Of a stretch of DNA of 64,000 nucleotides, positions 4,992 through 55,327 are shown piece by piece. This stretch comes from a virus. Lineage: Duplodnaviria; Heunggongvirae; Uroviricota; Caudoviricetes. How positions within the stretch are numbered: position 1 is the first letter of the stretch; the number at the start of each line of letters is the position of its first letter. Below the pieces are notes generated by a model that saw only the letters and a program-made list of their open reading frames with translations, was not told where the DNA came from and did no database searches. Location of the stretch: IMG/VR virus record IMGVR_UViG_3300018475_000095; one strand, 5' to 3'. Made by a program: the position numbers and the translations under genes.

Positions 4992-5927
4992 TTATCATAC
5001 AATACAGTGATCTGATTCAATTTCTCTTATGTATGATGAAATTCCTTTAAAAATATTTTTTATTAATTTTGATATCTTAACAGGAGATTCATTAATTAAA
5101 ATATCTTTCGCCTGATTCAATTTTAATCGATCAACGGTATATAAAGATGAAAAAATATCACAATAACGCTCATCTAGACTTCTAAGATGTTTAGACAATT
5201 TAACCGCGCTAAATACTTGTTTATATTTTCCATCTTCAGATTTTTTTGATATAAAAGTATCAGTGTTTATAACTCCATCGATAACTAAAGCATCAATATA
5301 TCTATTCTTTTTAATTAATGATGATACTAAATTATAGCACATTGAATTTATTCTAGAATTCTCTGGATCACTAAATGAATCTTGAAGTGTTATATCATCT
5401 GGATCATCAGTAAACATATCATGGATTCGTTTATGCTTCTCGTAATTTATGGATCTATTTTTATTATTTGCTGCTTGATAAAAAATTTGTCGAGTAGATG
5501 CGATACACATATTTATACATTTATCTGGGCCTTTTGGATCTAAATATATATTATTATTAATTTTGCCAGATTGATCCCATTTAGCAACAGTAATTGGATT
5601 TCCATTCTCGTCTAATGTATTAACAACTAGTTTTCTTTTAGATGAATATTTTTTATTCCAAGATTTATGCTCTAATGCATATAAAATAGCATGAGATAAC
5701 CATTCATAACAATCTTCTTTTGTAACATTCGAAGCATGACTCTTTGCATAGTATTTTTTAATCGCTCCCCAGTATCTGCACATTATAGCGGCAACATACC
5801 CTTCTTTTAAATATGGGTTGGTTTCATATTTCTCATATGAACGGACTAATTCATTTTTATCTATAGTTCTCCAATTTTCAATTCTATCAGCAACTGACTC
5901 ATGAATTTTTTTATACTGTAATAACAT
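4992..5927 (-). CDS. Hypothetical protein, possibly sigma-factor-like; ends TGA-TAA (Trp then stop under UGA=Trp)
   Basis: Start MLLQYKK at 5927 after AGGAGG; EDCYEWLSHAILYALE segment weakly resembles sigma region 2. Confidence 0.45.
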
Positions 5928-6026
5928 ATTATACCTCCTATTTATTACACTATATATTATATGATATAATTTTAAAAATGTATACTGATTTACCAAAGTT
6001 TTTTTAAATTTTTTGAATTTTTTATG

Positions 6027-6066: not shown

Positions 6067-7764
6067 CTAATTATTATTGTTTTTTATAGCTAAATCTTGA
6101 ATGTATTTTCTCAATATATCGATATTTTCTTCTGATATTTCATCATCTATAACATATTCAGATACTGCTTTTTTATCATTTACAATTTCATCGACCCTTT
6201 CATCAATTGTATCTTTTACAATCAATCTATATATAAATACGGTGTCTTTTGTACCTATTCTATGAATTCGATCCTCTGCTTGACTTGTTACTGCATATGT
6301 CCATGGGGTATCTATAAAGATCATATATGAAGCTGAATTTAACGTTATACCAGTTCCACATTTTTGAGATGTAGCTAAAAAGATCTTATGATCTGGATTA
6401 TTTTGAAAATTATCTATATTGTGGCTGATTGTCGCATCATCTATATCCCCAGTATTAACAGTAGGTTTAAGATCTTTTAACATATTTTCTAACTCATATA
6501 TTGCATCTTTAAATACAGAAAATATAACTACTTTATGACCTGATTCGACTATTTCTCTAGCTAATTCGCATGCCCGCTTTAATTTTGCACTTACGATTGG
6601 TAAAGTAGTTAAGGTGCTTGGGGTAGCAGTCGCTTGTCGTAATCTGCTAACCATTGCTAACAAGGCTGTGTTTGTTATCTCTACTTTATCTACCGAATCA
6701 CATATACCTGCTTCAAGATCTGAATAAAATTTTAACTGGTCTTCATTCATTTCTATATATTCAGATATTATTACTTTTGGAGGGAGATTTAACTCATCAG
6801 ACTTTTTTCTCCTTATAGAAAATTTATTTAACTGATCTTTAAGTATATCTAAGTTTCTATAACCAATAAGCGTATTATTAAATGGTCCAGCATATCTAGA
6901 GTAGTAATACTTAAATGTAGAAAAAGGGGATCTTTCAACTCCTATCCATTTTAAAGGGACATAAGCATCCGCAGGATTATTCGTTAATAAAGTTCCAGTT
7001 AACCCTACTTTATAATCAGCTTCTAATTTTAATAAATTATTACCTTGATCAGTATTAACACTTTTGCAAGCATGTATCTCATCTACAACAATCATATCAA
7101 AAGATGTCCTAGATTTTTTAAATGCAGATATTACTTCATCTTTTCTTAAAGTTTCAATATTAGTTATAACAAAAAATTCTTCAATATCAGATAATATATG
7201 TTCGCATCTAGCTTCAACTGATCCAATAACTGATTTTCCTTTTCTATTTATTCTTTCACCTAATATAGTTGCGCTTAGATTACTATGTTTTTTAATTTCT
7301 TTCTTCCAATTATATTTTAAATTATTTATACCACATATTATTAGACAATGCTTTATCTTACCTTGCTTATAGAGTTCTTCTGCTATATGGATTATTTGAT
7401 AAGTCTTACCTAATCCTGCTTCGTCTAATAACAGCCATGATTTATGATTGAGCCCGTATTGTATTCCTTCGAGCTGATAAGCATAAGGTTTCATGTAGTA
7501 ATTAGATGTATCTAGTTCATATGTAGATTCAGTAATTTCATTTTCATACAACAATTTCAAATCAATAGTATCTATAGATGTCAACTTATCTAAGACTGCT
7601 TGCAATTCAGTTAATGGAATTTCTCATTCTTTTGATTTTTTATCATATACTTTAAGATCTAATGTTTTCATATTTTTAACGATATCCGGATGATAGTCAA
7701 ATGATAAAAATAAAGATGTCAATCCAGGTATTTTTTTAGTTGTTCTCTCTTCTATGTAAATCAT
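6067..7764 (-). CDS. SNF2-family helicase with N-terminal HARP-like segment; in-frame TGA (codon 47) read as Trp
   Basis: ATG at 7764 right after upstream stop; frame open except TGA at 7624-7626 in YDKKSKE*EIP; LLLDEAGLGKT, VVDEIH, QAEDRIHRIG motifs. Confidence 0.9.
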
Positions 7765-16746: not shown

Positions 16747-18035
16747 TATTCACCCCATTCTTTATCAATTATTTTAAATTGGTCTACAATAAATTCAGTA
16801 TCCTTATCTATAAAACCATTAATATCTTCACAAAGAGGTACTTTATAATATTGTGTAACTAAATTATAGATGTATGCTCTTAAATTATTATTCCATATAT
16901 CTTTTTTATACTCTGCAGAATAACAGTCATTACCTAATTCTTCTTTAGCTTTTGTTGATGAAATGGCTTGTTGAACCCTTAATATATTATCTCTTATTCT
17001 TTCATTTTTAGTTATAACATTATTTAATAAATATTCAACTAACTTATTACTAAATGCATAAGATGTCACTCCTGAATATGTTATGAAAGAAGACACAGGT
17101 TTATATATTTCATTTAATTCTGCATCACTTAATTCATCTAAAGAGTTTAAATAGATATTTGGTAATTTATTAGTATAAGTGTTATTATTTATTAATTTAG
17201 TATTCCAATATATTTGTTTATCAGTAGAAGAAATAGGTCCCTCTATAACAGTTAAACTAGATTTAACATCCTCTGATGCTTGTATTAATAGAACTAAATA
17301 ATCTTCTATTAATTTAGAAGTGGAGTCAATTGAACTCCTTAGATTGTCAGCACCTATATTTAATGAATAAATATAAGGTTGTGTATTAGAAGAATATGTT
17401 ACTATATCACTTTTTACTGGAGTATTATTATTAGTATACTTAACTTCTTTTATACTTATACCATTATAATAAACAGGTTTTATTTTGAAAGGTACTGCAG
17501 AATTAAAATATATTGAATATTGCTTGTTAAATTTAATAGGTACTATATATAGATTTTTACCATCTTTTTTATTATTAGTTGTTGTAATAGAATCATCATT
17601 TAATATTCTTATTTTATCAGACATTTCTCCACTATAACAATTATAAAAAGGCATCAAATCAATTCCATCTAAATCTCTTACCATTCTAAGATATTGACCT
17701 AAATAATAATGTGTATTTGGGTCATATAAAGCAGAATTTGATTGATAATTAGATGTAATACCTGGATACCATTCCCCATCCACATACTTGGATATAACTT
17801 TAAAATAATTACTATCTAATGCTGTCTTTGGGCCTTTATACTCTGCAGTAACATCTAAACTTGAAATATAATCTTGTTCTGCTTTTACTATATATCTATC
17901 ATAAGTAATGTATGTAAATCCTTTTATAATAGATTTACCAGGTCTCCAAATATCTACTGTTGGAATATAAGTATCCCAGAGTAAACATTTTATAAATTTT
18001 GATATTAAATTATCACTGTAATATTTTTGAAACAT
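16746..18035 (-). CDS. Hypothetical tail-associated protein
   Basis: 429 aa ORF translationally coupled within the tail operon. Confidence 0.5.
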   Translation of the reverse strand: MFQKYYSDNLISKFIKCLLWDTYIPTVDIWRPGKSIIKGFTYITYDRYIVKAEQDYISSLDVTAEYKGPKTALDSNYFKVISKYVDGEWYPGITSNYQSNSALYDPNTHYYLGQYLRMVRDLDGIDLMPFYNCYSGEMSDKIRILNDDSITTTNNKKDGKNLYIVPIKFNKQYSIYFNSAVPFKIKPVYYNGISIKEVKYTNNNTPVKSDIVTYSSNTQPYIYSLNIGADNLRSSIDSTSKLIEDYLVLLIQASEDVKSSLTVIEGPISSTDKQIYWNTKLINNNTYTNKLPNIYLNSLDELSDAELNEIYKPVSSFITYSGVTSYAFSNKLVEYLLNNVITKNERIRDNILRVQQAISSTKAKEELGNDCYSAEYKKDIWNNNLRAYIYNLVTQYYKVPLCEDINGFIDKDTEFIVDQFKIIDKEWGE

Positions 18036-24582: not shown

Positions 24583-25080
24583 CTACTCCTCCTCATTAAG
24601 TAAGTTAAAACTACTATGCTTATAATTAAATTGACTACTTGAAAATGTGTTTTCAAATTCTGGAACTAATCTGCATGTTATAGAAGCTGGATATATTTGT
24701 ATAGTAGACATTTGTGTTACTCTAAATAATCTACCACTAGCACAATCTATACCACTTGGTATTATAAATAAAGCACCTGCTTGTATCCCTTCTAAATCAT
24801 AAGGAACACTTATAATAGCTTCACCTTCAACTAATTCAGCATCCCAACCTAATTTTTTCATCGTCTTCTGGTCTATATGCTCTTCAAAAATACAATCAAC
24901 TACTTCTGGTTTTTGATAATTGCTTTCTATCTCTGTATAGATAGTCCAATGTTTACCAGGTTGTGGAGCTCTATATACTACCTTTATTCCGATTAAACCA
25001 CACATTTCTTTAAAATATGTTCTATGAATTTTTATATTATTATTGAGAAGAAGTCCATATTTTTCGTTTTCACTAATCAT
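24583..25080 (-). CDS. Head closure/neck protein (gp14-like)
   Basis: FKEM..LIGIKVVYRAP, KKLGWDAE, GALFIIPSG; start MISENEK after GAGGAG. Confidence 0.55.
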   Translation of the reverse strand: MISENEKYGLLLNNNIKIHRTYFKEMCGLIGIKVVYRAPQPGKHWTIYTEIESNYQKPEVVDCIFEEHIDQKTMKKLGWDAELVEGEAIISVPYDLEGIQAGALFIIPSGIDCASGRLFRVTQMSTIQIYPASITCRLVPEFENTFSSSQFNYKHSSFNLLNEEE

Positions 25081-25900
25081 TGAACTCCTCCTCATCTTCT
25101 ATTTCAATTTCTTCCTGACCTTGTAATTGTTGTTTAGGAGCAAATCTAACACCTTGTTTATTATCTTTTTGGAATCTACTTCTTTCAATAGCTGCTTTAT
25201 TTGCAATATCTATATCTTGTTGTTCTGTTCCTAATTCATCTTCTTCAGTATCAAACATACTTGCTTGAGTAGGTTCTTCATATTTTTTATTATATATTGC
25301 TGGATATATGATTCTTTGATAAAGTCTTGGTTGTGATTTTTCCATATATTTGACATAATTTACAATCACACTTGCAACTTTAATAATCCAACTTGAATTA
25401 CCTAATACTAATAAAACATGCTTACAAGCTGCTCCTAATTTATTATCAGGATTTGTTATATTTGCTGGACGAAGTTCTGGTTCACCATCATTGTATTTAT
25501 CTACTGTTGCCCAATAATTAAATCTATACTTGAAATCTGGGCAACTGCAATGTAAATAAACATCACCTCTATTAAAAGCTACTGTTAATGTTTTTATAAC
25601 AACTCTAAGATTTAAGTCTTCATTATTATTTCTCATCAACTCTTTTAAAGTATCTATAAAATGACCATAAGAAATTTTAACAATATAGTTATCAGTTTCA
25701 CCTTTAACTTCTATTCCAACTGTTAAGATACCTTCTTTAAATAAGGTATTCATATCTATTCTATTGTATGAACGATTACTTGAGGAGATTTTAGACTTTA
25801 ATCTTTTTTCATATCTAGTCTTTCCATCTCCCTTTTCTCGCTCACCTCTTTTAGATTGGGATATAAGTTCATTTCTTGATTTTTCTAATAAAATACTCAA
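25073..25900 (-). CDS. SWIM zinc-finger protein
   Basis: CSCPDF...CKHV SWIM signature; TTG start after AAGGAG; acidic tail. Confidence 0.6.
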   Translation of the reverse strand: MSILLEKSRNELISQSKRGEREKGDGKTRYEKRLKSKISSSNRSYNRIDMNTLFKEGILTVGIEVKGETDNYIVKISYGHFIDTLKELMRNNNEDLNLRVVIKTLTVAFNRGDVYLHCSCPDFKYRFNYWATVDKYNDGEPELRPANITNPDNKLGAACKHVLLVLGNSSWIIKVASVIVNYVKYMEKSQPRLYQRIIYPAIYNKKYEEPTQASMFDTEEDELGTEQQDIDIANKAAIERSRFQKDNKQGVRFAPKQQLQGQEEIEIEDEEEFND

Positions 25901-28620: not shown

Positions 28621-29928
28621 TTAGGCAGTAACTCTACCTGAAACTAATAGATCTTTGTTAAGAAGTCTTAAGTCATACATTGTAGAGAAGCCTTGGCTCA
28701 TACCACCATCAGCATATCCTAATAATTGAGTTGGGATAACTGGCATATATGGAGCATAAACTGCTGCTGATGTTTCTAAATCTGAACCATTAACACCAAG
28801 AACAAATTTACCTGGTTCGATGTTTGGAGTAACATATACTTTTAATCCATCTAATGTACCAGCAAAGTAAGGACCATTAACTGTTGATGCTGGTGCTGCT
28901 GAGAATGCTTTAACCATAGATAAGATAGGTAAGATGTTTGAAGCTACTAACATATAGTTAGGTGCAAATCTTTTTGTTCTATCATAGATTTTTTGTTTAG
29001 CAATTGCAACTATTTCAGTAAATCCTTCATAGTGTTCCATTTTGCTTACGCCAATTGGTAATGTTTTAGACCATACTAAATCACCATCTGCATCTGCATT
29101 GTTGATTAATAAGTCTGTAACTTCTGTATCGATTTCATAATTTAATTGTCCAACAGCTTTTTGAGCTAATTGATCACCAAGATCGAAACCATAATCTTGT
29201 TTTGCTTGGTAGTTAGCGATTTGTGAGTAGTAAATAGCAATTCTTCTTGCTTTAGCTGCTAAAGCGATGCTTTCCATTCTAGCATTTAAAATTGGTAAAT
29301 CGTTTTGTGGGATTACAACGTTATCATAAACATATCTAACTTTGAATTCTGCATCTTGTTGAACTCCATCACCTGCTAATGTAACAGCACCTGTTTTAGC
29401 ATCGTCAACTGTGATTGTAACACCTGCTGCACCAACTACTTCTGGTTTAACTGTTTCTGTATTAACAACTGGGAACCAAGCTAATGTTGCTTTTCCTTGT
29501 GCATCTACTTTAACTGTTTCAACTACTCTTTCTGATGTATAATTAACATCTACTTTACCAAGTCTGAATGGATCGTTGAATACTTGACCTTGAGTTGTTT
29601 CACCTTTATTTGAACCAGCTGTGTATTGAACATAAGTGATATATCCAGTCATACTTGACATTGGTTGTACCATAACTAAATCAAATGCGATTAAATCTGG
29701 TAATGCTACTGTAACTAAGTTTAATGTAAATTTCTTGAAATCTCCTAAGTTAGCTCTTTGAGTACCTACTGAGTTTTCAAAAGCTTCGTTCATGAATTTT
29801 GATGTGTTTTCTAAACATTTTGCAATAACTAATTTTTTATGTTGAGGCATAGCTTCACTGTGTGATTTGCTATAAACACTTTCTGAAATTGCAAGTCTTT
29901 TAGAATAAGCTTCTAATAATGTTGCCAT
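28621..29928 (-). CDS. Major capsid protein (T4 gp23-like)
   Basis: LIAFDLVMVQPMSSMTG, EIDTEV, GSDLETSAAVYAPY motifs. Confidence 0.9.
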   Translation of the reverse strand: MATLLEAYSKRLAISESVYSKSHSEAMPQHKKLVIAKCLENTSKFMNEAFENSVGTQRANLGDFKKFTLNLVTVALPDLIAFDLVMVQPMSSMTGYITYVQYTAGSNKGETTQGQVFNDPFRLGKVDVNYTSERVVETVKVDAQGKATLAWFPVVNTETVKPEVVGAAGVTITVDDAKTGAVTLAGDGVQQDAEFKVRYVYDNVVIPQNDLPILNARMESIALAAKARRIAIYYSQIANYQAKQDYGFDLGDQLAQKAVGQLNYEIDTEVTDLLINNADADGDLVWSKTLPIGVSKMEHYEGFTEIVAIAKQKIYDRTKRFAPNYMLVASNILPILSMVKAFSAAPASTVNGPYFAGTLDGLKVYVTPNIEPGKFVLGVNGSDLETSAAVYAPYMPVIPTQLLGYADGGMSQGFSTMYDLRLLNKDLLVSGRVTA

Positions 29929-32197: not shown

Positions 32198-34072
32198 TTA
32201 AAATTCTAAATTATTATCTGTAAAATCTTCGCCTTCACCCGCTTCTTCAGGTGTTGGTAAAATATCTTCTTCCTCTTCTGGAGAAATTTCAGTTTCAGTC
32301 TCTAATCCTAATTCAGTGTCTAAGTCTAATGGTTCATTTTCTCCAAGTCCAATATCACTGCCTATGTTACTAGAACTACCTAATCCTAAATCTTCTTCCT
32401 CTTGAGAAGTTTCACTTAATCCTGGTTGCTCTAATTCATCTATCTGTTCTTCTAATAAGCTTGTTATATCTGAATCTGATATAACATTAGATAAAAGTAT
32501 TTTTAATATTTTAAGTTTTGTTGCTGGATTATCTACATCAGTTAAAAGATCCATGACATCTCTTACGATACCAATTCTTCCAACAGTATTTTCTCTTCTA
32601 TCAATTTCTTCTTGAGTTGTTGGTGGTTGCATTTTAATAGTAAACTTACCTAAGTAAGATTGTAAGCCTTTATCTATTAACATTAAATTAATAACATCAG
32701 TTATGCCTTGAATAACAGTGTTTTGGATTCTCTTTATTGCTTTAGCATATCTTGAAGATATAATTGCTAAAGATTGACCACCACTAAATCCTGCACCATC
32801 ATCAGTAAACCCAAAATATTGTTTAGGTACCCTTAATGCACCATAATATTTATTAGTAAAATAATCAACATCAGGTAATTGACCTACATTTACATCTCCA
32901 CCTATTTGGTTTGCTGTAATTGAACCCTGGCCATTATGAGTTGGTACATAAATATTATTTTCAATAGGTCCTGGGTTAGTGTAATCAGACATTGAATTAC
33001 CAGCATCAATTGCTGATTTTTGTTCTATTAATTGTTTTATACCTGCTAAATAACCTCTGACATCTTCTTTTGGCATATCACCAATTTCAACATTGATCAC
33101 TCTTGTAATAGATGATTTAGTTATTCTGTTTAATAGCATTGAGTTTTCTAATAAAGATAATTCACGCCATATTTTAAATACGTTGTATAAAAGGGACTGA
33201 CCACGTTTGACGGTGTACTCTGTACCATTATCTTTCTGTAAAGCATTGTCATCTCTAAATAATTTTACTTTTTCAGGTATTCTTGATGTGTTGTCTTCGA
33301 GAGCGGCATGAACAAATTTATCTCCATTATAAATATTTATATCATCTTTTTGGAATCTATAACTATAAGAAGTTGTTATTAAATTATTTTTATTCTTTGC
33401 TATTGTTCCGATATCTGTTTGTATAAAGCCAGCTGTTTTGCCAAATCTAGTTAATTCAAAAGTTGTAGCGGGATTTGGAACTGCTTCTATATAATGTACA
33501 TAATGATCAGTTGTTTTATAAAGATTTATATCTATAGCTTCTTTAAGAGATTTTCTCTTTTGAATATCTTCATCAGTTTCTTTATTTGCATTTGTATTGA
33601 AGAACTCGTCATTATTATATTCAGATTCTTTAAATAATTCCCAATAAATATCACCATATTTAATCAATGAGTAAACCCATTTATAAATATTTTTATCTAC
33701 CTTTAAACTTTTTAATAGATAAGTAATATATTTATTTACATTTGCATCATCAGATTCTGACCAAACAATTTCTCCATTTTCATTATATTCAGTAGCATCT
33801 TCTGCATATGTTTCTAATACAGCAGCAACTGTTGGATCATCACCCATCGTATCTAATAATTGGTATAGCTGATCTCGTGTCTGACTTGCTTGGTCAAATG
33901 AATTGATTGCAGATATATCTATTTTGCTACTATCACCTATCTCTGCTATTACCGAAGCAATACCTCGCTCTGCTAGATCAGTATCACTTTGTTGAGGTTT
34001 AGGAATAGGTCTTATCTTTTTATTATAATTAACTTCATCATCTATTACAGCTGAATCTATTTCATTAGGCAT
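32198..34072 (-). CDS. Portal protein (T4 gp20-like)
   Basis: DPTVAAVLETYAEDAT, LIKYGD, LSLLENSMLLNRITKS, DVDYF..KYYGALRVP motifs; next to terminase. Confidence 0.9.
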   Translation of the reverse strand: MPNEIDSAVIDDEVNYNKKIRPIPKPQQSDTDLAERGIASVIAEIGDSSKIDISAINSFDQASQTRDQLYQLLDTMGDDPTVAAVLETYAEDATEYNENGEIVWSESDDANVNKYITYLLKSLKVDKNIYKWVYSLIKYGDIYWELFKESEYNNDEFFNTNANKETDEDIQKRKSLKEAIDINLYKTTDHYVHYIEAVPNPATTFELTRFGKTAGFIQTDIGTIAKNKNNLITTSYSYRFQKDDINIYNGDKFVHAALEDNTSRIPEKVKLFRDDNALQKDNGTEYTVKRGQSLLYNVFKIWRELSLLENSMLLNRITKSSITRVINVEIGDMPKEDVRGYLAGIKQLIEQKSAIDAGNSMSDYTNPGPIENNIYVPTHNGQGSITANQIGGDVNVGQLPDVDYFTNKYYGALRVPKQYFGFTDDGAGFSGGQSLAIISSRYAKAIKRIQNTVIQGITDVINLMLIDKGLQSYLGKFTIKMQPPTTQEEIDRRENTVGRIGIVRDVMDLLTDVDNPATKLKILKILLSNVISDSDITSLLEEQIDELEQPGLSETSQEEEDLGLGSSSNIGSDIGLGENEPLDLDTELGLETETEISPEEEEDILPTPEEAGEGEDFTDNNLEF

Positions 34073-34090: not shown

Positions 34091-37000
34091 TTAACCTCAG
34101 AATATAATCCCATCTCTTAATGCAGATGGCTTATAAGGTGTAGCTGAACCAAATCCAAAATCTATTGGTTTAAACGCATTAGAATTAGATTGGTTATTTT
34201 CTTTAAATTTAGCATTATTTTCTTGTTTATTTTCAATAGAACTGCTTTTATCTAATATTTTTTGCTTTTGTTTTGATAGAGGATCTAGTAAATTTTTTAT
34301 CTCTTCTTCAAATTCTATATTTATTTGTTTTTTAGTATAACTATCATTTGCTGTAGCATTACTTACTTGTAATGTTGTATCTAAACTTTCTCCGAAATCA
34401 AAAGCAAATTGTTCTGCATTTTTAGATGCATTAAATAATGCTCCACATACAGCATCGCACACGTCTTTTCGTCCACCATCAGGGTGATCTACTTTTCCAG
34501 TATTTATATTTCTTTCTAGATCTATAATTTCATCAATTAAAGTTTTAGAATCATATATTTCTAGTCTTTTCTCATAAATTGTAGATTTAAAATTTTGATA
34601 AGGTTTACATATATGATCTGAATCTACTCTATCAACAGATAAAACACTATACTTATATCCTTTAGCAAGTAATGCTTGACCTGTATCATAACTTTGGAAA
34701 GTATCTGTCGTGATACCTTGAATATTAAATCCTTGTTCTTTTAACCAATAAATAAAATTTCTATTCTTTTCAAAAGATATTTGATATCCTTTTGGTGCTT
34801 TAATCGAAACTGAAAAAGCAAGAGTATAAAATAAATCATTTGATTGATTTTCAGTTGTACTTAGTTTTTTACCTTTAATCCAAACACCTGCAATACCAGT
34901 CATATCTCCGCTTACTGACATATCTAGATGAATAAACAAAGGTCTACTCTTTAATCTTTTATTTACTTTACTTAAATCAAATAAATCATAGTATTGTATC
35001 TTATCTTCTTGACTATTTCCTATTTCTAATATATCTTTAATAAATGGATTTTGTAATTCAAGATTTTTAATTTCTTGTACTGCAACACCAGAAATATATT
35101 TACTAATTTCACTTGATGATATACCAGCAAAGTCACATAATGCTCTTTCAATATCATCTAAAAAGTTTGATTTAAAATCTATAGGAACTTCAATTATTTT
35201 ATAGCCTTTATCTCTCCATATATCTACATCATCATTAGTAGGTATAACTTGAGACATCAAGAACTTATTTCCTAAAGCTACATTAAATGTTTCTTCTTTA
35301 TAAGTACCTTTTGGCTTAACTTTCCAAACAGGTTCATCAACAATTAAAACATTTTCTTTCTCAGATTTTAATTTCTTTTTAATATGCTCTTCAAGGAATG
35401 ATTTTTCACTTCGTTTCGAAGATGCTAAAGCAAGTAAAGTAGGATTTATACCTTTATAAATAAACCTTGTTTTCATACCCCCAATAGCGGTATCAATCAT
35501 ATTAATTGCTTTTTCTTTTTGTTTATCTATATCTTGATTTCTCATAAATGAAATTTCATCAAAGAAAGCAAAGAAAATAGGCAAACCAATCAAGTCATCT
35601 GCTTGGGAACCAATTATTATATTGATATAATCAGGTGGAACCCATTTTAAATTAGTCCTACCTTCCATAGTTCCTCTTGCCATAAACCATGGTGAAAGTT
35701 TTACTGTGTTTTGAAATTTACTAATACCAATTTCTTCTGCTAAAGCTAATTTAATATTCATAAAAGCAAAACATATTTTTTCAGTTGGTTTTAAGTGAAA
35801 AAATTCAATTGGGTTTTTCAAGCACATTATCCTGTACATTAGATAACAAGCAACAGCAACAGCGATTTCGGAATTATGTGTAACTATACAATTATCAGTT
35901 AAATACAAATGATCATCACTATTAATCATTATGCATTGACATTCAACTTTTCTAGACAATTCAATTGATTCTATAGCTCTACTAGGATTTAAAGAATTAG
36001 GATTAATTCTAGATAGTTTTCGTGATAATTTAAATGGTTTTATTTCTTTAGGTAATTTTATAGAGATAGTATAGCTTGTATTACATTCTATAACTTTCCC
36101 ATCTTTTTTATATTTACCTGTAACTTCTTTGTATTGAGCTACACCACCTAATGATTGTACTAGATAAATAAAATTGTCACAAAGTTGTGAACTGATTGTA
36201 TTAAATTGGATTGTTGATCCATTTTTTGTTATTGTACCATCAGTATCCATTAATCCTTGTAATAATTCAATTCTATCTTCGACTGAGCTATGTAAATAAA
36301 TATTTGGTATAAATTTATCAGCTGAAGATTTTATCAGATTTAAATCATGTAATGCTTCAACAAAAGGATTTGGTTCGGCGACAGGATTACCTTTAGGACC
36401 AACAGTAAATTTTTTTACTTTTTGAGAAAATATATATCCATACTTACATGATGGTAATGGGCTTATTTTTATGTTATCAAATGTTTTATCTAATTTATTT
36501 GATATATAATCGATTAATTCTTTATCTGCACTTGTTAATGAACATGAGTTTCTTCGGATACAGCCATCGCCTAAAATTACCCCTAATATATATGGATCAA
36601 TTAGTAGTTCTTTTTTCTCAAACTCAATTGGCTTAGTTACAGGTATATAATAAAGATGTTCTTTATATTTACCTTGTTTTACCTTAATTAATGGTTTGTC
36701 GAATAACTCTTGCAAATGAATAGTTTTCTTATACTTATAATTATTTTTTGGCAAAATTGTCCAAAGATGTTCTTTACAACATTCAGTAGTTGTTTTATCT
36801 GTAAAAGTTATTTTATAAACATCTTTAACACCTTGCGGAAAAATATGAGTGACGATATGTGGCTTACCATCCGCTCCAATTACATTCATACCAGGTTTAA
36901 TTGATCCCATAGGAATAAACCCATCAGATGTCATAACTTTACTATCTAATGGTTGTGCTTTACCTAAACCTCTTGCTCCTGATTCAATAAATGTATTTAC

Positions 37001-37276
37001 ACTAGTTGAAATATTATCCGGAAATAATTTTTTTAATTTTTCTCTTCAAAAAGGATATAATTTAGATTTACCTTCAGCATCATGTCAAGCATGTCCTAAA
37101 TAATTATTGTCATCTAAGAATGTTTCTATGTCTACGGGTATCTCGTTATAATCTGCGTATTTTAAATCTTCAAATACTTTAGAGGTACCTTCTTTTGAAA
37201 ATTCTTCTAAAATACTTAAAGCTAATTTTTTCTCTTCTTCTGAAAGATTATTTAATTCATCGAAATTATAAGTCAT
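34091..37276 (-). CDS. Terminase large subunit, 1061 aa precursor with intein; three in-frame TGA read as Trp
   Basis: One frame from ATG 37276 (AAGGAG) to TAA 34091 apart from TGA at 37085, 37046 and 34097; Walker A GARGLGK|S, FFDEIS Walker B, HLDMS and KDVCDAVCG nuclease motifs. Confidence 0.9.
35873..36958 (-). mobile_element. Class-3-type intein with LAGLIDADG homing endonuclease (362 aa)
   Basis: Starts Ala (GLGK|AQPLDSKV), ends VTHN|S; block B HLW, block F CQCI, block G T (WCT triad); LGVILGDG and LQGLMDTDG LAGLIDADG motifs. Confidence 0.9.
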
Positions 37277-37301
37277 TGGCTACATAATCTCCTTATCTTA
37301 T

Positions 37302-38081
37302 TTAGTTATCAAATTTAAACATTTCACGTTCTCTAGGAGATAATTCAGACATTAAATCTTCAATATCTAATAAATCTTCTAAGTCATCTTTTTCTCTATC
37401 TGGATCTATATTTATTAGGTCATCTTCTATTTCATAACTTACATTATCTACTTGAATTATTATAGAAGGTTTCTTAGTTAATATAATATCCAAATCTTCA
37501 TAATCATAGTAATCTTTTAATTCTCTGTCTAAATGGTATCTTATTTCTTCGATAGCATCTTCATAACTGTCAAAAGTAAATTCCAATGCTCTATTAGTTA
37601 ATCTATTCAAACCTCTGAATATAGCTTGTTGTTTTTTATATTCCTTACCTTCAAGAGTTTCTCTTACAACTAGCACTGGATATTTCTTATCCCAACCAAA
37701 TAATTCTCCAAGAGTAAACATTCTATGTCTACCTTCTTGCATATTTTCAGCATAATTTAAAACTGTTATAGGAAATTTTTTCTTTTGTTTTAAGATAACA
37801 TTTTTTAAATGTTCAAGATCTTCTGATTCACGTTGAATTTGTTTATATTGCTTTTCAAAAGTGCTATCGAATATTTCTGCACATGCTTCAAAATATTCTC
37901 TAGGGCTAAGCATTTCAATAGAAGAAGTTGTTTTAAAATATTTATTTGTATTTTCTGGATCTCGTAAATAATCTGTATACTTTGACATTTCACTTTTTGT
38001 TACATCAAAATATTGATTATTTTCTATGTTACCAGTTCCATAATCATTTAAGTAAATTCTATTTTCTTTTAAAAATTTCAT
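37302..38081 (-). CDS. Protein with ParB/Srx-like motif
   Basis: PITVL...QEGRHR...YPVLVV ParB-N-type signature. Confidence 0.5.
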   Translation of the reverse strand: MKFLKENRIYLNDYGTGNIENNQYFDVTKSEMSKYTDYLRDPENTNKYFKTTSSIEMLSPREYFEACAEIFDSTFEKQYKQIQRESEDLEHLKNVILKQKKKFPITVLNYAENMQEGRHRMFTLGELFGWDKKYPVLVVRETLEGKEYKKQQAIFRGLNRLTNRALEFTFDSYEDAIEEIRYHLDRELKDYYDYEDLDIILTKKPSIIIQVDNVSYEIEDDLINIDPDREKDDLEDLLDIEDLMSELSPREREMFKFDN

Positions 38082-39385
38082 TAAAATACCTCTGTAATAA
38101 GAGCATCGTTTAATCTATCATTAAAAATGCTTTCGTCAAATTCCATTCAACTGTATTGAGGTTCTCTAAAATAGAAATCTTCTGCTGTATAATTAACAAA
38201 AGCTTCTTCTGTTGAACAACCTTTTATATAATCATATAGATCTAAAATATCTTTGTCTGTTAAATAGATTTCATAATGTTGAGTTTCTTGATTTGCTTTA
38301 TACTTAAAAGGTATAGCCTTATCTAAAGCTTTATTAAAATCCTTAACACATGCTTCTTGACTACCTACATTATATGCATCATTTACAGCCATATTGATAG
38401 CATCATGTAAAGCATCATTTTCATTTAATTCATTAATTAAATTATCTAAAGAAATATTATGATCTTTTAGTATTTCTTTATTTGTGTCATTTAAGTAAGT
38501 GGTGATAAAATCTAATTCTTCCGCTGAATATCAATAAGGTGTTCAATCTCATTGTTCATAAATATCACCGGTCATACAAGAAAGTAAAAAATCTTCTGAC
38601 CAAGTTCTGTTAGAAAGCCCTTCAGCTAATTTACTCATTCTAACATCTAAAATAGAATAATTATCATCGAAAGGTTTCAACCCTTCTAATTTCTCTCTGA
38701 TTAAAGGTTTATAAAAATTATATAAATTTTCATTACCTGAAGTTACAAAGAAAGATTTTACATCGATAGGATCATCATCCATATCCATAAAAGAACCTGA
38801 CTCAAAATGAAATTGATATTTATCATTAGTTCTTTTATTTATGTTTATATACAAAGGTCCTTGATCAGTATACATATCATAATAATAGTCACTTGAAGTT
38901 GATGCAGTACACCAACTTGTATCTCTACCTAACTTACAACTAGCTTCATAAGTTTTAGGAATATATACTTTTCAATTAGAGTCTTCATAAACTAATTCAG
39001 CGTCTTTTTCAATATCAGAAGCTCTTACAGCTTTTTGAGTCTGTCTTAATTCTTGTCTTTGAGATAGTTCTTTATATGAATTTTTATCATTTAGATAGTT
39101 ATCTAAATCTTCAAGAGATTTAAAAGTCATTATATCTTTATTTTTAAGATTTTTCTTATTCTCTTCAAATCTTTTTAATATATCGGTAACATGCCCAATA
39201 TTATCTAGTTTGTTTTTATTAGCAAGACTTAAAATCCATTTAGCATAAGTTCCTGCAATATCACCACCTTTATATGTAGGATCTAGTTGAATTAATGCTA
39301 AATATTTTTTATCATCAATTTTTGGAAAATATTTTTTTAAATCTCATATATCTTCCAATAATAATTCTTCTCTTAAAAATCGCAT
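38081..39385 (-). CDS. 434-aa phage protein hidden by six in-frame TGA (Trp); WCT-motif, PcfJ-like (tentative)
   Basis: ATG 39385 after AGAGGA; TGA at 39344, 38972, 38549, 38543, 38531 and 38147 all in frame; ends TAA overlapping next ATG (TAATG); joins track ORFs 38549..38875 and 38147..38392. Confidence 0.8.
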
Positions 39386-40449
39386 TGTTTAAAATCCTCT
39401 ACAAAAGTATCATACACCTCAGTTAATTTATAACTTTTATCAAATATAATTTGTTTATAATTATTTGCTTTACAATCAATTAAAATTCTAACTTTTTGTT
39501 TCTTATTATTTTTATTAACTATATAATATTTATGAATAATAATTCTACTTCCTAAATATGTTCTAGTTTTAATATCTAAATTATAATCAATAATTAAATC
39601 TTTATAAGCAGATTTCTTTTTATTTAATATATACAGTATTTTTTCTTTAATTTCTTCTAACTTTACTTCTTTAGGTTGCTTTCTATCTGATATCTTTGTT
39701 AATATCTTTTTTAATATAATTGCTACTATTAAAATTAAAATATAAACTATTAGTGCAATTGGAGGACCATTTCCCTCTTTACCAAAGAATATGTCTAACC
39801 CAGGTATTCTCATAAATAATAACATGCAATATAAACCTATGAATTTACATATTGCATTTACTATAACATAAAATGAAAAATTCATTTTAATTGAACCTAC
39901 TACTAATGATATTAAATCATCTGGGAATATAGGAAATAAAACAGTAGCACCATATATCCATTTACCTGTCTTACTATTTAATTTTTTACTCCATAATTCA
40001 TAATCTTCATTAGAACCTGCTACCCATTTTATAGCTGGTTTACCGAATGTTCTTCCTATCCAGTATGATGCTATAGCACCTGTTATAGTGGCAGAGCATA
40101 CAAATACAACAAAAAATAAAGTAGTTAGACTAAATAAATTTGCTATCTCATTTCCATTAGCAACTAAATTAGGTATTTGATTACAAGCTACCAAAATAGG
40201 TAATGCTGGAATTGGAATTATAGCTACTTGAGCAAACATAATCACTCAGATTATTGCATACACCAACCAACCAGACTTACCTTCTATAAGACCAGAACCA
40301 AAAAATTCTTCTATTGCAGGTATCTCAAATATACCTTCTGATATAGCCATAAATGCCATGCATATTATAATAACTCTTAAAGCTTTCTGCCACTGCTCTA
40401 TAGTTACTTTGTTTAATAATTTTTTTATTATATTATCTTCTCTTTTCAT
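39373..40449 (-). CDS. DedA/VTT (TVP38/TMEM64-like) membrane protein; in-frame TGA at 40246
   Basis: Track ORFs 40246..40449 and 39373..40245 are one frame joined by TGA (YAII*VIMFAQV); GAIASYWIGR.FG and LFPIFPDDLI motifs. Confidence 0.8.
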
Positions 40450-40525
40450 ATTATTCTCACTTAATTTAACATATCTAGATTTAATGAAACTATACTTGCT
40501 TATAATTTATATTAAAAATAATAAA

Positions 40526-40564
40526 AAGTCTTTAGAATTACTTAAAAACAAGTTCTAAAGACTT
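40526..40564 (-). terminator. Terminator after holin
   Basis: AAGTCTTTAGAA/TTCTAAAGACTT 12-bp stem followed by T tract on the minus strand. Confidence 0.7.
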
Positions 40565-40570
40565 CTTTAA

Positions 40571-40954
40571 TTAAAAACTAGATAAAGTTTGTTTAGATGA
40601 TTTAACCTCAACTTCAATACCTTGTTCTTTTGCTATTTGTTTAACTTGTTCAGATACTCCATAAACTGCTGCTTCTATCAATGTTTTTAAATGTGGGTTA
40701 TTAGTCATATTAGGGAATTTAGCTAATACTTCATTTAAAACATATTCATATTTTTCTTTACCAGTTTTCTTTCCTAAATTTGGGTAAAGTTGTTCTGCTG
40801 CTTTTACTGCATTTGTTATGAAATTATCTACTCGTTTATCTTGAATCTTTGCTTTTAATTTTGCAAATAAAATAGAACCAAAAGTTGTAATTAAAGTAGC
40901 AATAACAACGCCTGCTATTTTAACTCCATAATCTAAAATTATTGACCAATCCAT
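40571..40954 (-). CDS. Holin (LL-H family-like)
   Basis: One N-terminal TM helix then AVKAAEQLY...GKEKYEYV...IEAAVY. Confidence 0.7.
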   Translation of the reverse strand: MDWSIILDYGVKIAGVVIATLITTFGSILFAKLKAKIQDKRVDNFITNAVKAAEQLYPNLGKKTGKEKYEYVLNEVLAKFPNMTNNPHLKTLIEAAVYGVSEQVKQIAKEQGIEVEVKSSKQTLSSF

Positions 40955-41706
40955 TATCTATCTCCCTTAATTTTATTTGCTACATTTTCAATAAATTTAG
41001 CATCTTCTAATTCTTTCTTTCTAATTATTTCTCTTCTAGTAGTGAAATCACATTCTATATTTCCCAACATTGGTAATAAACTTGCTACTAATATAATTAA
41101 GAAATAAGCCGCTACATTCCAAGATACACAGAAGCAAATCAAAGAAAGAACAATAACTTCAGGGAATAATATTTCAACTAACTTTAACATATTAGTAAAA
41201 ACTATTGAACTTCTTCCTACTACATTCATTTCTTTTGCATTTTCATAAGATTGAATTTTTCTATTTATTACCTTGGCTATTTTGCCTGCAACTAAATGAG
41301 ATAAGAATAATAAACCAAAGCAAACTACGATACCACTTTTTCTAAGTTTTGTTAAATCAAAATTCTGTATTTCAATATCACTATAAATAAATGCTACTAT
41401 TGAAAATATTACAGCTATGATTGCCATCAACCAGGTGTTTAAATGAGTAAAGAAATTTTTAACTTTTGCAGAGTATCTTTTAAAACAAAATTTCTTTATC
41501 AAATAAAATATCAATAATAAACTTGCTGCAGCTATTGTTATCCAAAATATAACATTATTTGGTATTGCAGAAGTTATTTTGGTACCAATTTCTGTTATTC
41601 TTAATGTAGGTAAAGCAAACCAACAAGTACCTACTGTAGTTGCTAATCCTAATATAATATTTAAAATATTTATAAATATAAATAAAAATCCTTTAAATAT
41701 TTTCAT
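40954..41706 (-). CDS. Multi-pass membrane protein
   Basis: About six hydrophobic segments; coupled to the holin gene. Confidence 0.6.
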   Translation of the reverse strand: MKIFKGFLFIFINILNIILGLATTVGTCWFALPTLRITEIGTKITSAIPNNVIFWITIAAASLLLIFYLIKKFCFKRYSAKVKNFFTHLNTWLMAIIAVIFSIVAFIYSDIEIQNFDLTKLRKSGIVVCFGLLFLSHLVAGKIAKVINRKIQSYENAKEMNVVGRSSIVFTNMLKLVEILFPEVIVLSLICFCVSWNVAAYFLIILVASLLPMLGNIECDFTTRREIIRKKELEDAKFIENVANKIKGDR

Positions 41707-51419: not shown

Positions 51420-51791
51420 TTACTCCTGCATCCAAAATTCTGTTTTATCAATTATTGTAATAACGTCATAGTCATTTTCTGCTACATATTTTCTCAATTT
51501 TATTTGGTAATAATATTTACCAGGAATTAAAGCAACTGTATCTTCAGGTTCTATTTTTATCAAAATATTTCCACAATCATCATATTTTAAGGTATTTTTA
51601 TTATACTTCTTCTTAACTAACGCACACTCGAATGGTTGATTTGGTTCCATTATACCTAAATATAATTCATCTTTTTCATCTATATCATATCTAGTAGGGC
51701 ATAAATCACTCCCCTCATTTATAAATAAAGGATATTTAGCACTATCACCTCTAGTTAATTCAATCATATTATTTGAAACATTAGTTGACAT
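51420..51791 (-). CDS. BppU-like baseplate upper protein N-terminal domain
   Basis: IELTRGDS...IKIEPEDTVALIPGKYYYQIKL pattern. Confidence 0.65.
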   Translation of the reverse strand: MSTNVSNNMIELTRGDSAKYPLFINEGSDLCPTRYDIDEKDELYLGIMEPNQPFECALVKKKYNKNTLKYDDCGNILIKIEPEDTVALIPGKYYYQIKLRKYVAENDYDVITIIDKTEFWMQE

Positions 51792-54102: not shown

Positions 54103-54351
54103 CTACTCCTTAATTTCTTCGAATATGTCGTCAAAGCCTTCTTTCTCAATTTTAGTTTCTAGAGAGAAGTTAGGTTTGAATCCATAACCCATAAACATAT
54201 TATTAACGTATTCGTTACTCAAGTACCACTTATTGTTTGTATAAATAAAAGTACCCTCATTATCAATTAATGTTAATTCATTACCATTTGCTAATATATT
54301 ATTAGATATATTTTTAAAAGGTATTTTTATTTCGTCTTTTACCTTGAACAT
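54103..54351 (-). CDS. 82-aa hypothetical protein overlapping 3' end of DGR RT
   Basis: ATG 54351 after AAGGAG; overlaps RT by 38 nt. Confidence 0.5.
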   Translation of the reverse strand: MFKVKDEIKIPFKNISNNILANGNELTLIDNEGTFIYTNNKWYLSNEYVNNMFMGYGFKPNFSLETKIEKEGFDDIFEEIKE

Positions 54352-55327
54352 GTATATACTCCTTTATATAACCTTCAAATGAACCTTTATAATTGGTGTA
54401 TTGGTTGCTATTTATCCCATATTTTGATCTAAGGTATTTCTCTTTTCTAAATAAGTTCTTTCGAGTTTTATATGAATTTTTATTTGTTATTTTACCATTA
54501 GATTGTAAACGGAATTGAATTTTTAACCAAGTAAATTGTTTTAATTTACTGATAGTTGTCTTATTTTTATTTATAATTATTTTTAATTTATTACAAACTT
54601 CGTATATTACTCGCAGACAGTTTTTTAATTCTTCTTTACTACTGCATATCAGATAACAATCATCTACATATCTACCATAAAATTTAATATGTAATTTTTC
54701 TTTGATTAAATGATCTAACTCATTAACATAGAACAAAGAATTTATCTGCGAAATTTCGCTTCCTAATGCTATTCCTTTCTCTCTACTGGCTTTCTCTATA
54801 AAATGTTTATACAGATTATATATCTTATCGTCTTTTATATAATTTCTTGCTTTACTTAATAGAATATTATGATCTATATTATCAAAATATTTGCTAAAAT
54901 CTATCTTTAATATATAACCTTCATTAGTATGATATCTTTTATAGTATTTATTTAAATGTACAAATAATCTATCTAAAGTAAATATATAGCCTTTACCATT
55001 TATTGTAGCTCCATTATCATATATTAAGGATCTTCCGAGTAGATTGTTTAAGTAATATCTACATAAGCATTTTTGTACAATTCTTTCACTAATATGTGCA
55101 GCTTTTATATTTCTAGTTCTTCCTCTGCAGCTTTTAGTGAATTCAAAGTATCCAGGTGATTTGTAACTCCCAGCATGCAATTGTCTAAATATTCTATTTA
55201 CTAATCTATGCTTTTGAATTTCAAAATTTTGGATGCTTTGCTTTCATCTAACATTTCTAAAGCATAGATTAGCACAAACCAATAAATTTTTATATGTAAA
55301 AACTTCTTTAAAAGTTTTATTTTTCAA
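54314..55327 (-). CDS. DGR reverse transcriptase, 337 aa; in-frame TGA (Trp) at 55244
   Basis: TTG start 5 nt after AGGAGA; NVR*KQSIQ; AAHISERIVQK, YDNGA..GKG, LKIDFSKYFDNIDH, LGSEISQ, YGRYVDD motifs. Confidence 0.93.

What the first reader, a model, noticed from the sequence alone, without database searches (positions are those of the whole stretch)
34091..40449. TGA-Trp codons are rare and clustered: possible translational gate on packaging and DGR activity
By hand count there are about 170 TGG Trp codons versus 13 TGA, the opposite of what AT pressure gives in long-established code-4 genomes such as Mycoplasma. Ten of the 13 fall in 34.1-40.2 kb. The capsid/tail block (8.2-34 kb, about 55 Trp) has none, and the 22 kb fibre block has only the one in the RT. 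Where present, TGAs often sit near the N-terminus (terminase codons 64 and 77, SNF2 codon 47, RT codon 28, 38081-gene codon 14), so failed readthrough would abolish the protein. Inference: either a recent or incomplete reassignment in which abundant proteins avoid UGA, or a switch in which UGA decoding licenses DNA packaging and receptor mutagenesis. This differs from the structural/lysis-gene enrichment reported for many recoded gut phages.
Basis: inference. Interest (0 to 1): 0.78.

Follow-up and report, generated by a model that had tools for sequence, protein, structure and literature searches.

The report
Sparse, clustered TGA-tryptophan codons in phage
This animal-gut phage reads the stop codon TGA as tryptophan but uses it rarely and mostly in four neighbouring genes; close relatives use TGA far more often and in most late genes, so the cluster looks like a leftover of selection against TGA, not a dedicated switch on DNA packaging.

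Summary

**Counts.** On the code-4 gene chain I count 177 TGG and 14 in-frame TGA.
- 12 are real Trp codons: terminase (TerL) 64, 77, 1060; the 434-aa gene 14, 138, 279, 281, 285, 413; the VTT membrane protein 68; SNF2 47; RT 28.
- One is a TGA-TAA tandem at a gene end. One is an ORF-start artefact.
- Ten lie in 34.1-40.4 kb (permutation p below 5e-6). The structural block has 0 of 54. Other NNR codon pairs are 81-90% A-ending.

**Relatives argue against a gate.**
- The TGA share of Trp is 6% here, and about 19%, 33%, 40% and 71% in four related lineages.
- There TGA also sits in the portal, prohead protease, neck and fibre-block genes, but never in the major capsid protein.
- TGA and TGG swap at conserved Trp columns at about the synonymous rate.
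- TerL and VTT are not consistently enriched in relatives (CMH p=0.08).
- At eight columns the window has TGG where every other lineage group has TGA, and never the reverse. The low density looks secondary.
- The six-TGA gene is an accessory gene missing from three relatives.

**Best reading.** Known suppressor-tRNA recoding (Borges et al.) held low by selection against costly TGA. Earlier notes of this scan record the same recoding elsewhere in this genome.

The parts
34091..37276 (-). Large terminase (TerL), 1061 aa. TGA=Trp at codons 64 (37085-37087), 77 (37046-37048) and 1060 (34097-34099). Codons 64 and 77 lie upstream of the Walker A motif.
   Evidence: PHROG terminase hits. The N-terminal 105 aa are 83% identical to relatives, where W64/W77 are TGG or TGA. 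The C-terminal F-W-G end is conserved, and L089 has TGG at that Trp.
35873..36958 (-). LAGLIDADG intein, residues 107-468. It is inserted between the GK of the TerL P-loop and the following Ser, starts with Ala and ends with His-Asn. Its one Trp is TGG.
   Evidence: Pfam LAGLIDADG_3 and Hom_end. Alignment with the intein-less TerL of L008 and L090. Boundaries.
37302..38081 (-). 259-aa protein of unknown function directly upstream of TerL. Its one Trp is TGG here and TGA in relative L006.
38081..39385 (-). 434-aa accessory protein (P0002) with six TGA=Trp codons: 14, 138, 279, 281, 285, 413. Window coordinates: 39344-39346, 38972-38974, 38549-38551, 38543-38545, 38531-38533, 38147-38149. It also has three TGG. 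The N-terminal half is conserved and the C-terminal half is fast-evolving.
   Evidence: 322 homologues. TGA columns 138 and 413 are near-invariant Trp. Relatives carry 5/7, 1/6 and 2/6 TGA. The gene is absent between VTT and TerL in L089, L090 and L091. AF2 model has pLDDT 87, with no PDB fold match.
39373..40449 (-). 358-aa membrane protein with a VTT (DedA/SNARE-associated) domain. TGA=Trp at codon 68 (40246-40248); six TGG.
   Evidence: Pfam VTT_dom. W68 is TGG in L003/L008 and TGA in L005/L090. Other Trp columns toggle.
40571..40954 (-). Holin (Holin_LLH family), one gene upstream of the cluster. Its single Trp is TGG in all six lineages.
40954..41706 (-). 250-aa protein, apparently multi-pass membrane, upstream of the holin. 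It has 4 TGG here. Relatives have TGA at W55 and other columns.
   Evidence: The membrane character is read by eye from the hydrophobic consensus.
32198..34072 (-). T4-type portal (gp20). 0/4 TGA here, 3/4 in L090, 5/5 in L091.
28621..29928 (-). Major capsid protein (gp23 family). Trp is always TGG in the window and in L003, L089, L090 and L091.
6067..7764 (-). SNF2 helicase with an N-terminal HARP domain. TGA=Trp at codon 47 (7624-7626). It lies beside primase, DnaB-like helicase and helicase-loader genes.
54314..55327 (-). DGR reverse transcriptase. TGA=Trp at codon 28 (55244-55246).
   Evidence: PHROG alignment covers residues 3-327. Codon 28 aligns to a near-invariant Trp. The equivalent Trp is TGA in L093.
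4995..4997 (-). TGA immediately followed by TAA at the end of gene 4992-5996. It is either a stop or one extra Trp, so it is not informative.
16750..16752 (-). Not a coding TGA. It lies upstream of the TAATG-coupled start at 16746.

Best explanation
The phage belongs to a clade of roughly 140-155 kb T4-like animal-gut phages that decode UGA as Trp.

**Decoder (not tested here).** Earlier notes report a phage tRNA-Trp(UCA) 57 kb beyond the window. I infer, without a test, that it works in competition with host release factor 2.

**Mutation against selection (inferred).**
- AT-biased mutation keeps turning TGG into TGA.
- Each TGA costs yield and wastes a truncated peptide.
- Selection therefore removes TGA in proportion to how much protein is needed and how much chain is lost on termination.

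**What results in this genome.**
- TGA is absent from the major capsid protein and from the other virion genes of this genome.
- It survives in a few non-virion genes: TerL, RT, SNF2 and a lysis-adjacent membrane protein.
- Within those genes it lies mostly near the 5' end or at the very 3' end.
- It sits at a much higher share (6 of 9 Trp codons) in one fast-evolving accessory gene.

**Why this lineage looks clustered.** This lineage has the lowest TGA density of its clade and has probably lost TGA from protease, neck, membrane and fibre-block genes. The survivors therefore look clustered.

**Shown:** TGA=Trp, the counts, the turnover, the gradient among relatives, and capsid avoidance.
**Inferred:** incomplete suppression, the cost gradient and the direction of change.
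For: - TGA aligns with conserved Trp. No gene ends in TGA.
- TGA makes up 5.9% of Trp codons, against 81-90% A-ending for the K, E, Q, TTR and AGR pairs.
- Synonymous sites are near saturation between lineages, yet portal and capsid Trp codons stay TGG.
- The TGA share of Trp over the orthologous genes is: window 9%, L003 19%, L089 33%, L090 40%, L091 71%.
- In the relatives TGA occurs in portal, protease, neck and fibre-block genes.
- The capsid protein is TGG everywhere (P about 0.006).
- L003 and L008 have identical portal proteins and 97.2% nucleotide identity. Between them 4 of 24 Trp codons in VTT-to-TerL toggle, against 25 of 313 K/E/Q A/G sites. TGA/TGG therefore behaves like a synonymous site in these genes.
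- At 8 columns the window has TGG where every other lineage group has TGA; there are 0 the other way.
- TerL W545 (W183 of the intein-less relatives) was converted to TGG, while the N-terminal codons 64/77 and the terminal codon 1060 remain TGA.
- There is a 5' bias. In the window p is about 1e-4 outside the accessory gene. Over alignment columns of six lineages TGA makes up 24/57 Trp codons in the first fifth against 38/169 elsewhere (p 0.01-0.04).
- The six-TGA gene is accessory and fast-evolving: 59-63% identity against about 90% for its flanks in L005, and 19 non-synonymous against 38 synonymous changes between L003 and L008.
- Borges et al. describe the same general route and pattern for TGA-recoded Agate phages.
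Against: - No measurement of UGA read-through efficiency or of protein abundance exists. The host and its code are unidentified.
- I could not read the suppressor tRNA myself. No genome is held, and no tRNA lies in the window or in the fetched loci.
- A simple codon-bias proxy for expression does not separate TGA-bearing genes from the rest (p=0.53).
- The fibre block holds low-copy virion proteins, yet is almost TGA-free (1/82).
- SSB, which I would expect to be abundant (as T4 gp32 is; my own knowledge), is reported to carry TGA (not verified).
- There is no avoidance of the strong UGA-U termination context: 16% against 22% T after the codon (p=0.20).
- The direction of change (loss in the window lineage) rests on parsimony with a poorly resolved tree and fast-toggling sites.
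- The 5' bias is predicted equally by a gate.
Confidence: 0.55

Rival explanations
1. Translational gate. In-frame UGA near the start of TerL, the lysis-adjacent membrane protein, the 434-aa protein, RT and SNF2 blocks their synthesis until the phage suppressor tRNA has accumulated. This would time packaging, lysis-related functions and DGR activity. It is the Borges-type code-change timing, here reduced to a few checkpoints.
For: - Failure to read codons 64/77 removes everything from the Walker A motif onward.
- All five TGA outside the accessory gene, leaving out the trimmed TerL codon 1060, lie in the first 19% of the ORF.
- Every lineage examined has at least one internal TGA in TerL and in VTT. 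TerL W77 is TGA in 5 of 6 lineages.
- The cluster abuts the holin. Borges et al. found a strongly TGA-recoded transmembrane protein in the Agate lysis cassette and proposed lysis timing.
Against: - Positions toggle. W64 and W77 are both TGG in L003/L004. W183 is TGA in the others but TGG here.
- At the observed per-gene TGA frequencies (0.2-0.4) and 8-9 Trp codons per gene, 'at least one TGA' is expected by chance in 80-95% of lineages (my arithmetic).
- TerL and VTT are not enriched over other late genes in relatives (CMH p=0.08).
- The holin itself is TGG in all lineages.
- Replication-type genes also carry TGA: SNF2 here, and SSB and a homing endonuclease by earlier notes. Decoding must therefore already work before packaging.
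- No promoter or timing evidence was obtainable.
Confidence: 0.25
2. Mosaic origin. The cluster exists mainly because the 434-aa accessory gene, and perhaps its neighbours, was brought in by recombination from a more heavily TGA-recoded relative. On this view the local excess is historical and says nothing about function.
For: - The gene holds 6 of the 10 cluster TGA (P about 3e-6 for 6 of 9 at the genome rate).
- It is absent from L089, L090 and L091.
- It is 63% identical to the L005 copy while the flanking genes are about 90% identical.
- The lysis-to-P0004 block is closest to L005. TerL and the structural genes are closest to L089/L090. This shows mosaicism.
- Relatives with 70% TGA exist.
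Against: - GC and GC3 of the gene are ordinary for this genome (z -0.6 and -0.7).
- Copies in L003/L008 have only 1-2 TGA. The TGA sites here are shared with L005, so the state is old within this sub-lineage.
- The excess remains without this gene (p=0.006).
Confidence: 0.15
3. The host itself uses code 4 (for example a gut mollicute), and the TGA pattern merely follows expression level.
For: The AT-rich genome (28% GC) has no TGA stops. One related lineage reaches 70-77% TGA.
Against: - A TGA share of 6%, against 81-90% for comparable codon pairs, is far from what a settled code-4 genome shows.
- The phage is reported to carry its own UGA-reading tRNA (not verified here).
- Borges et al. predict standard-code Firmicutes or Bacteroidetes hosts for such clades.
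- The holin is of the LL-H family. I associate this family with phages of Gram-positive bacteria (my own knowledge).
Confidence: 0.05

Closest known systems
TGA-to-Trp recoded ('code 4') gut phages of standard-code hosts, especially the Agate clade (Borges et al., bioRxiv 10.1101/2021.08.26.457843)
   Same: - Low-GC phage from animal faeces, about 154 kb, with TGA depleted as a stop.
- In-frame TGA aligns with Trp, and a suppressor tRNA is reported.
- Closely related genomes differ strongly in how far they are recoded.
- A transmembrane protein next to the lysis genes carries TGA.
   Different: - Virion genes here are free of TGA, and overall use is very low (6% of Trp).
- A replication-type gene (SNF2) carries TGA.
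- The comparison with relatives suggests loss, not ongoing gain.
- Membership of the Agate clade itself was not tested; no terminase tree against their set was made.
Block-wise dual coding in crAss-like and other phages
   Same: Recoded codons are confined to part of the genome while the rest reads as standard code.
   Different: - In those phages the recoded block is the whole late or virion module and is dense.
- Here the 'block' is four genes, one of them accessory, and it is not conserved in relatives.
Settled code-4 genomes (Mycoplasma, Spiroplasma; NCBI table 4)
   Same: UGA is decoded as Trp and TGA is not used as a terminator.
   Different: - In those genomes TGA is the majority Trp codon under AT pressure (my own knowledge).
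- Here it is 6%, while other NNR pairs are 81-90% A-ending.
Nonsense-error (processivity) cost models of codon usage (Eyre-Walker 1996; Gilchrist and Wagner 2006; cited from memory, not read here)
   Same: Error-prone codons are tolerated early in a gene and avoided later and in highly expressed genes. This matches the 5' bias and the capsid avoidance.
   Different: - Those models concern ordinary sense codons.
- Here the risky codon is a suppressed stop, and no expression data are available.

Membership tests
TGA-to-Trp recoded phage (code 4 by suppression) | In-frame TGA inside conserved genes, aligned with Trp in homologues | tested here: met
   The 434-aa protein at columns 138 and 413, RT codon 28, the SNF2 HARP Trp, and TerL/VTT Trp columns
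TGA-to-Trp recoded phage (code 4 by suppression) | TGA not used as a terminator | tested here: met
   Stops are 48 TAA and 19 TAG, with none TGA. The one ambiguous case is a TGA-TAA tandem.
TGA-to-Trp recoded phage (code 4 by suppression) | Phage-encoded UGA-reading tRNA | not testable with these tools
No tRNA in the window or in the fetched loci. The rest of the genome is not held.
TGA-to-Trp recoded phage (code 4 by suppression) | Recoded codons concentrated in structural and lysis genes, with replication genes in standard code (usual pattern in Borges et al.) | tested here: not met
   The structural block has 0/54. SNF2 in the replication block has one TGA. Relatives do show TGA in virion genes.
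Agate clade (Borges et al.) | Placement within the Agate clade on a large-terminase tree | not tested
Programmed translational gate (regulatory stop codon) | The regulatory codon is kept at the same position among relatives beyond what shared ancestry gives | tested here: not met
   TGA and TGG toggle at conserved Trp columns, including between strains with identical portal proteins.
Programmed translational gate (regulatory stop codon) | Gated genes are enriched for the codon relative to other genes in every lineage | tested here: not met
   TerL+VTT against other shared genes: p=0.016 in the window, but 1.0, 1.0, 0.06 and 1.0 in L003, L089, L090 and L091. CMH p=0.08.
Programmed translational gate (regulatory stop codon) | Decoding capacity changes during infection and controls protein output | not testable with these tools
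   Needs a time course in an infected host; no host is known.

The most novel reading that the evidence does not exclude
The few TGA that survive in this TGA-depleted lineage are kept on purpose. These are the codons at the 5' ends of TerL (before the Walker A motif), the lysis-adjacent VTT membrane protein, the DGR reverse transcriptase and the SNF2 helicase. They would act as dose or timing checkpoints that tie the output of these enzymes to the level of the phage suppressor tRNA. On this view the window is a minimal, distilled version of code-change regulation, after all dispensable TGA had been purged.
Probability: 0.15. Interest if true: 0.6.

Novelty: new member of a known kind. Interest (0 to 1): 0.35.

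Why it matters
Stop-codon recoding in gut phages is known. How it spreads or recedes within a genome is not settled.

This clade offers a natural series of related genomes, running from 6% to about 70% TGA among Trp codons.
- The gene order of recoding is partly reproducible. The capsid protein is never recoded, while portal, protease, neck and fibre-block genes are recoded only in the denser genomes.
- TGG and TGA exchange quickly at conserved Trp codons.
- One lineage appears to be losing TGA.

This makes two questions testable in principle. Is recoding maintained for regulation, or merely tolerated? Can recoding run backwards?

For annotation, the practical point is that a genome with only a dozen in-frame TGA still needs code 4. 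Otherwise its terminase, RT, SNF2 and several other genes are miscalled.

Tried and rejected
- **Phage GenBank collection.** A distant blastn search of the region gave only a 90-base chance-level match.
- **IMG/VR.** The 434-aa protein alone gave nothing. The window is not in that collection. With the family alignment, 78 loci were found, but they are distant. By ORF coverage most look like standard code and are not syntenic, so I did not use them for codon comparisons.
- **Fold of the 434-aa protein.** The AF2 model is confident (pLDDT 87), but Foldseek against PDB gave no match below E=0.37.
- **Promoters.** The T4 late-promoter motif TATAAATA is mildly over-represented overall (45 against 32 expected). 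I saw no minus-strand site in the intergenic gaps next to the cluster genes. The sigma-70 scan found fewer sites than shuffles. No timing inference was possible.
- **+4 context.** T follows TGA in 16% of cases and TGG in 22% in relatives (p=0.20). In the window it is 1 of 11 against 47 of 177. There is no support for context selection.
- **Expression proxy.** The A-ending fraction of NNR codons does not separate TGA-bearing genes (p=0.53).
- **Foreign-origin test by composition.** GC and GC3 of the six-TGA gene are ordinary. It has no paralogues in the window.
- **Sequencing runs.** No RNA holder is listed. The DNA holders are animal faeces metagenomes of 2018. Contigs laid from four runs were identical to the window, so they show no TGA/TGG polymorphism.
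- **Suppressor tRNA.** No whole genome is held, and the JGI record behind the window cannot be searched. No tRNA lies in any fetched locus.
- **Discarded result.** One of my scripts used a wrong start coordinate for gene 4244-4975 and produced spurious TGA counts. It was corrected, and the figures are not used.

Full report
**What is there**

The window is AT-rich (about 28% GC) and every gene lies on the minus strand. Reading in the direction of transcription, it holds:
- a fibre/LRR and DGR block (64 to 41.7 kb);
- a membrane protein, a holin, a VTT-domain membrane protein, a 434-aa protein of unknown function and a 259-aa protein;
- a large terminase that carries a LAGLIDADG intein;
- a T4-type portal, prohead protease, gp23-type capsid protein, neck and tail genes (34 to 8 kb);
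- a replication block with an SNF2/HARP helicase, a helicase loader, a DnaB-like helicase and a primase.

The portal protein is found, letter for letter, on a 154,272-base JGI metagenome contig. The region occurs in animal faeces metagenomes.

**Check of the observation**

On the code-4 gene chain there are 177 TGG and 14 in-frame TGA. Three needed a closer look.
- The TGA at 16750-16752 is upstream of a TAATG-coupled start, so it is not coding.
- The TGA at 4995-4997 is directly followed by TAA, so it is not informative.
- The TGA at 34097-34099 is TerL codon 1060, two codons before TAA. It is a real Trp codon: the F-W-G end is conserved and relative L089 spells that Trp TGG.

That leaves 12 real TGA codons.
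- The alignments place them on Trp. Columns 138 and 413 of the 434-aa family are near-invariant Trp.
- RT codon 28 is a near-invariant Trp.
- SNF2 codon 47 aligns with the Trp of the HARP domain.
- TerL 64/77 and VTT 68 are TGG-encoded Trp in relatives.

No gene ends in TGA.

Ten of the 12 lie in 34.1-40.4 kb.
- Block counts, TGA/TGG, are 1/25, 0/54, 9/17 (10/17 with TerL codon 1060) and 1/81.
- The clustering is far beyond chance. Fisher p is about 2-4e-7, and none of 200,000 permutations reached the observed scan statistic.
- It survives removal of the six-TGA gene (p=0.006).
- The other two-fold NNR codon pairs are 81-90% A-ending, against 5.9% for Trp.

**Relatives**

Look-ups by the 434-aa protein, the portal and the RT brought in loci of related phages, 3 to 22 kb each. 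On a portal tree they form one well-supported clade. The groups are (window, L089, L090), (L003 = L008) and L091. Five results bear on the interpretation.

1. *TGA density varies widely.* Over the orthologous genes the TGA share of Trp is 9% in the window, 19% in L003, 33% in L089, 40% in L090 and 71% in L091. A second locus of the L091 lineage has 23 TGA and 7 TGG.
2. *In the denser genomes TGA sits in virion genes.*
 - Portal: 3/4 in L090 and 5/5 in L091.
 - Prohead protease: TGA in L003, L089, L090 and L091.
 - The gp13-like neck protein, the membrane protein upstream of the holin, and fibre-block genes also carry it.
 - Only the major capsid protein is TGG in all five lineages (P about 0.006 given each lineage's TGA frequency).
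3. *TerL and VTT are not specially enriched in relatives.* The contrast with other shared genes is significant only in the window (p=0.016). It is absent in L003, L089 and L091. CMH p is 0.08.
4. *Positions are not fixed.* TGA and TGG alternate at the same conserved Trp columns. L003 and L008 encode identical portal proteins and are 97.2% identical in DNA. Between them 4 of 24 Trp codons in VTT-to-TerL differ, against 25 of 313 A/G sites in K, E and Q codons.
5. *Time is not the limit.* Fourfold sites between the window and L003/L008 differ at 42-53%, and G-ending K/E/Q codons are almost wholly turned over. Portal and capsid Trp codons nevertheless stay TGG.

**Direction of change**

At eight Trp columns the window has TGG while every other lineage group with data has TGA. 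Six of these have data from all three groups:
- prohead protease W48;
- TerL W545 (W183 of the intein-less relatives);
- VTT W61;
- W55 of the membrane protein;
- W112 and W152 of gene 51791-52381.

No column shows the reverse. All six TGA of the L003/L008 group that face a window TGG coincide with TGA in both other groups. Independent gains at the observed frequencies would give only about one such column (my arithmetic).

The simplest reading is that the common ancestor already had these TGA and the window lineage converted them to TGG. This is parsimony on a small, partly unresolved tree with fast-changing sites, so I hold it as probable, not shown.

**The six-TGA gene**

The 434-aa protein belongs to a large unnamed family (322 hits at E of 0.001 or better).
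- Its N-terminal half is conserved and its C-terminal half is variable. In other phages the N-terminal half is fused to BspA-type leucine-rich repeats.
- It is absent between VTT and TerL in L089, L090 and L091.
- It is only 59-63% identical to its nearest copies, while its flanks are about 90% identical in L005.
- It has a high non-synonymous rate.
- Its GC and GC3 are ordinary.
- Its predicted fold is confident but matches nothing in PDB by Foldseek.

It is an accessory, fast-evolving gene in which TGA reaches 6 of 9 Trp codons, far above the rest of the genome. It alone makes most of the cluster.

**Position within genes**

Outside that gene, and leaving out the trimmed TerL codon 1060, all five TGA lie in the first 19% of the ORF (p about 1e-4). 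TerL also has its last-but-one codon as TGA.

Pooled over alignment columns of six lineages the 5' bias is weaker but present. TGA makes up 24 of 57 Trp codons in the first fifth, against 38 of 169 elsewhere (p 0.01-0.04).

Both a gate and a cost-of-termination model predict this bias, so it does not separate them.

**Interpretation**

The general phenomenon is known: TGA-to-Trp recoding of low-GC gut phages, with loss of TGA stops and a suppressor tRNA. Borges et al. describe closely related Agate genomes with different codes, and TGA arising in structural and lysis genes. They also describe a strongly recoded transmembrane protein in the lysis cassette. Block-wise coding is also described.

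Virion genes here are indeed TGA-free. But the cluster begins one gene after the holin and includes a membrane protein.

The specific idea of a switch on packaging and DGR is not supported by the relatives. It also sits badly with TGA in SNF2. Earlier unverified notes of this scan report TGA in SSB, a homing endonuclease and an ART-like gene elsewhere in the genome.

My best account, at 0.55, is a balance between AT-biased mutation and selection against a costly, incompletely suppressed codon, in a lineage that has purged most of its TGA. A regulatory gate remains possible at about 0.25. A mosaic origin of the accessory gene as the main cause stands at about 0.15. A code-4 host stands at about 0.05.

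**Limits**
- I could not read the suppressor tRNA or the rest of the genome.
- No host is known, no expression data exist, and only six other lineages were sampled, over 3-22 kb each.
- For RT and SNF2 there is no relative of intermediate TGA density, so conservation of those two codons cannot be judged.

Noticed in passing
window 35873-36958 (minus strand): TerL carries a 362-residue LAGLIDADG intein. It is inserted between the Lys of the Walker A GK and the following Ser. It begins with Ala, not Cys or Ser, and ends in His-Asn. The TerL of L004, L008, L089, L090 and L091 lacks it.
   Followed up: partly
window 38081-39385; alignment A1: The 434-aa protein is part of a large unnamed phage family with an invariant W-C-T-A and Q-F-H core in a conserved N-terminal domain of about 230 aa. 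The C-terminus is hypervariable. In other phages the N-terminal domain is fused to BspA-type LRR domains. The AF2 model is confident, with no Foldseek match in PDB.
   Followed up: partly
window 37302-38081: The 259-aa protein directly upstream of TerL contains an E-G-R-H-R stretch that resembles the ParB/Srx-type nuclease motif. It could be the DNA-recognition partner of the terminase. There is no family hit; this is read by eye only.
   Followed up: no
window 40450-41706: Three membrane-type proteins stand in a row: a 250-aa multi-pass protein, the holin and the VTT protein. No recognisable endolysin is nearby. A gap of about 120 bases between the holin and VTT recurs in L003, L005 and L090.
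   Followed up: no
L089 14736-16872: In this relative the gp23-type capsid gene is split into three ORFs (284, 64 and 119 aa), separated by gaps of about 350-375 bases. This suggests introns or other insertions in the capsid gene.
   Followed up: no
L090 17621-19825; L089 from 21581: The homologue of window gene 25073-25900 carries an intein with an HNH domain in these relatives. Inteins and homing elements seem common in this clade.
   Followed up: no
window 39373-40449, codon 12: Relatives have Trp at this column: TGA in L005, L008, L089 and L090, TGG in L003. The window has Leu TTA, one base away from TGA. This is a possible case of a TGA removed by an amino-acid change.
   Followed up: no
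L021 about 14960-14975: A distant standard-code relative (portal 43% identical) ends its terminase with a TGA-TGA tandem. TGA is therefore a working stop outside the recoded clade.
   Followed up: partly
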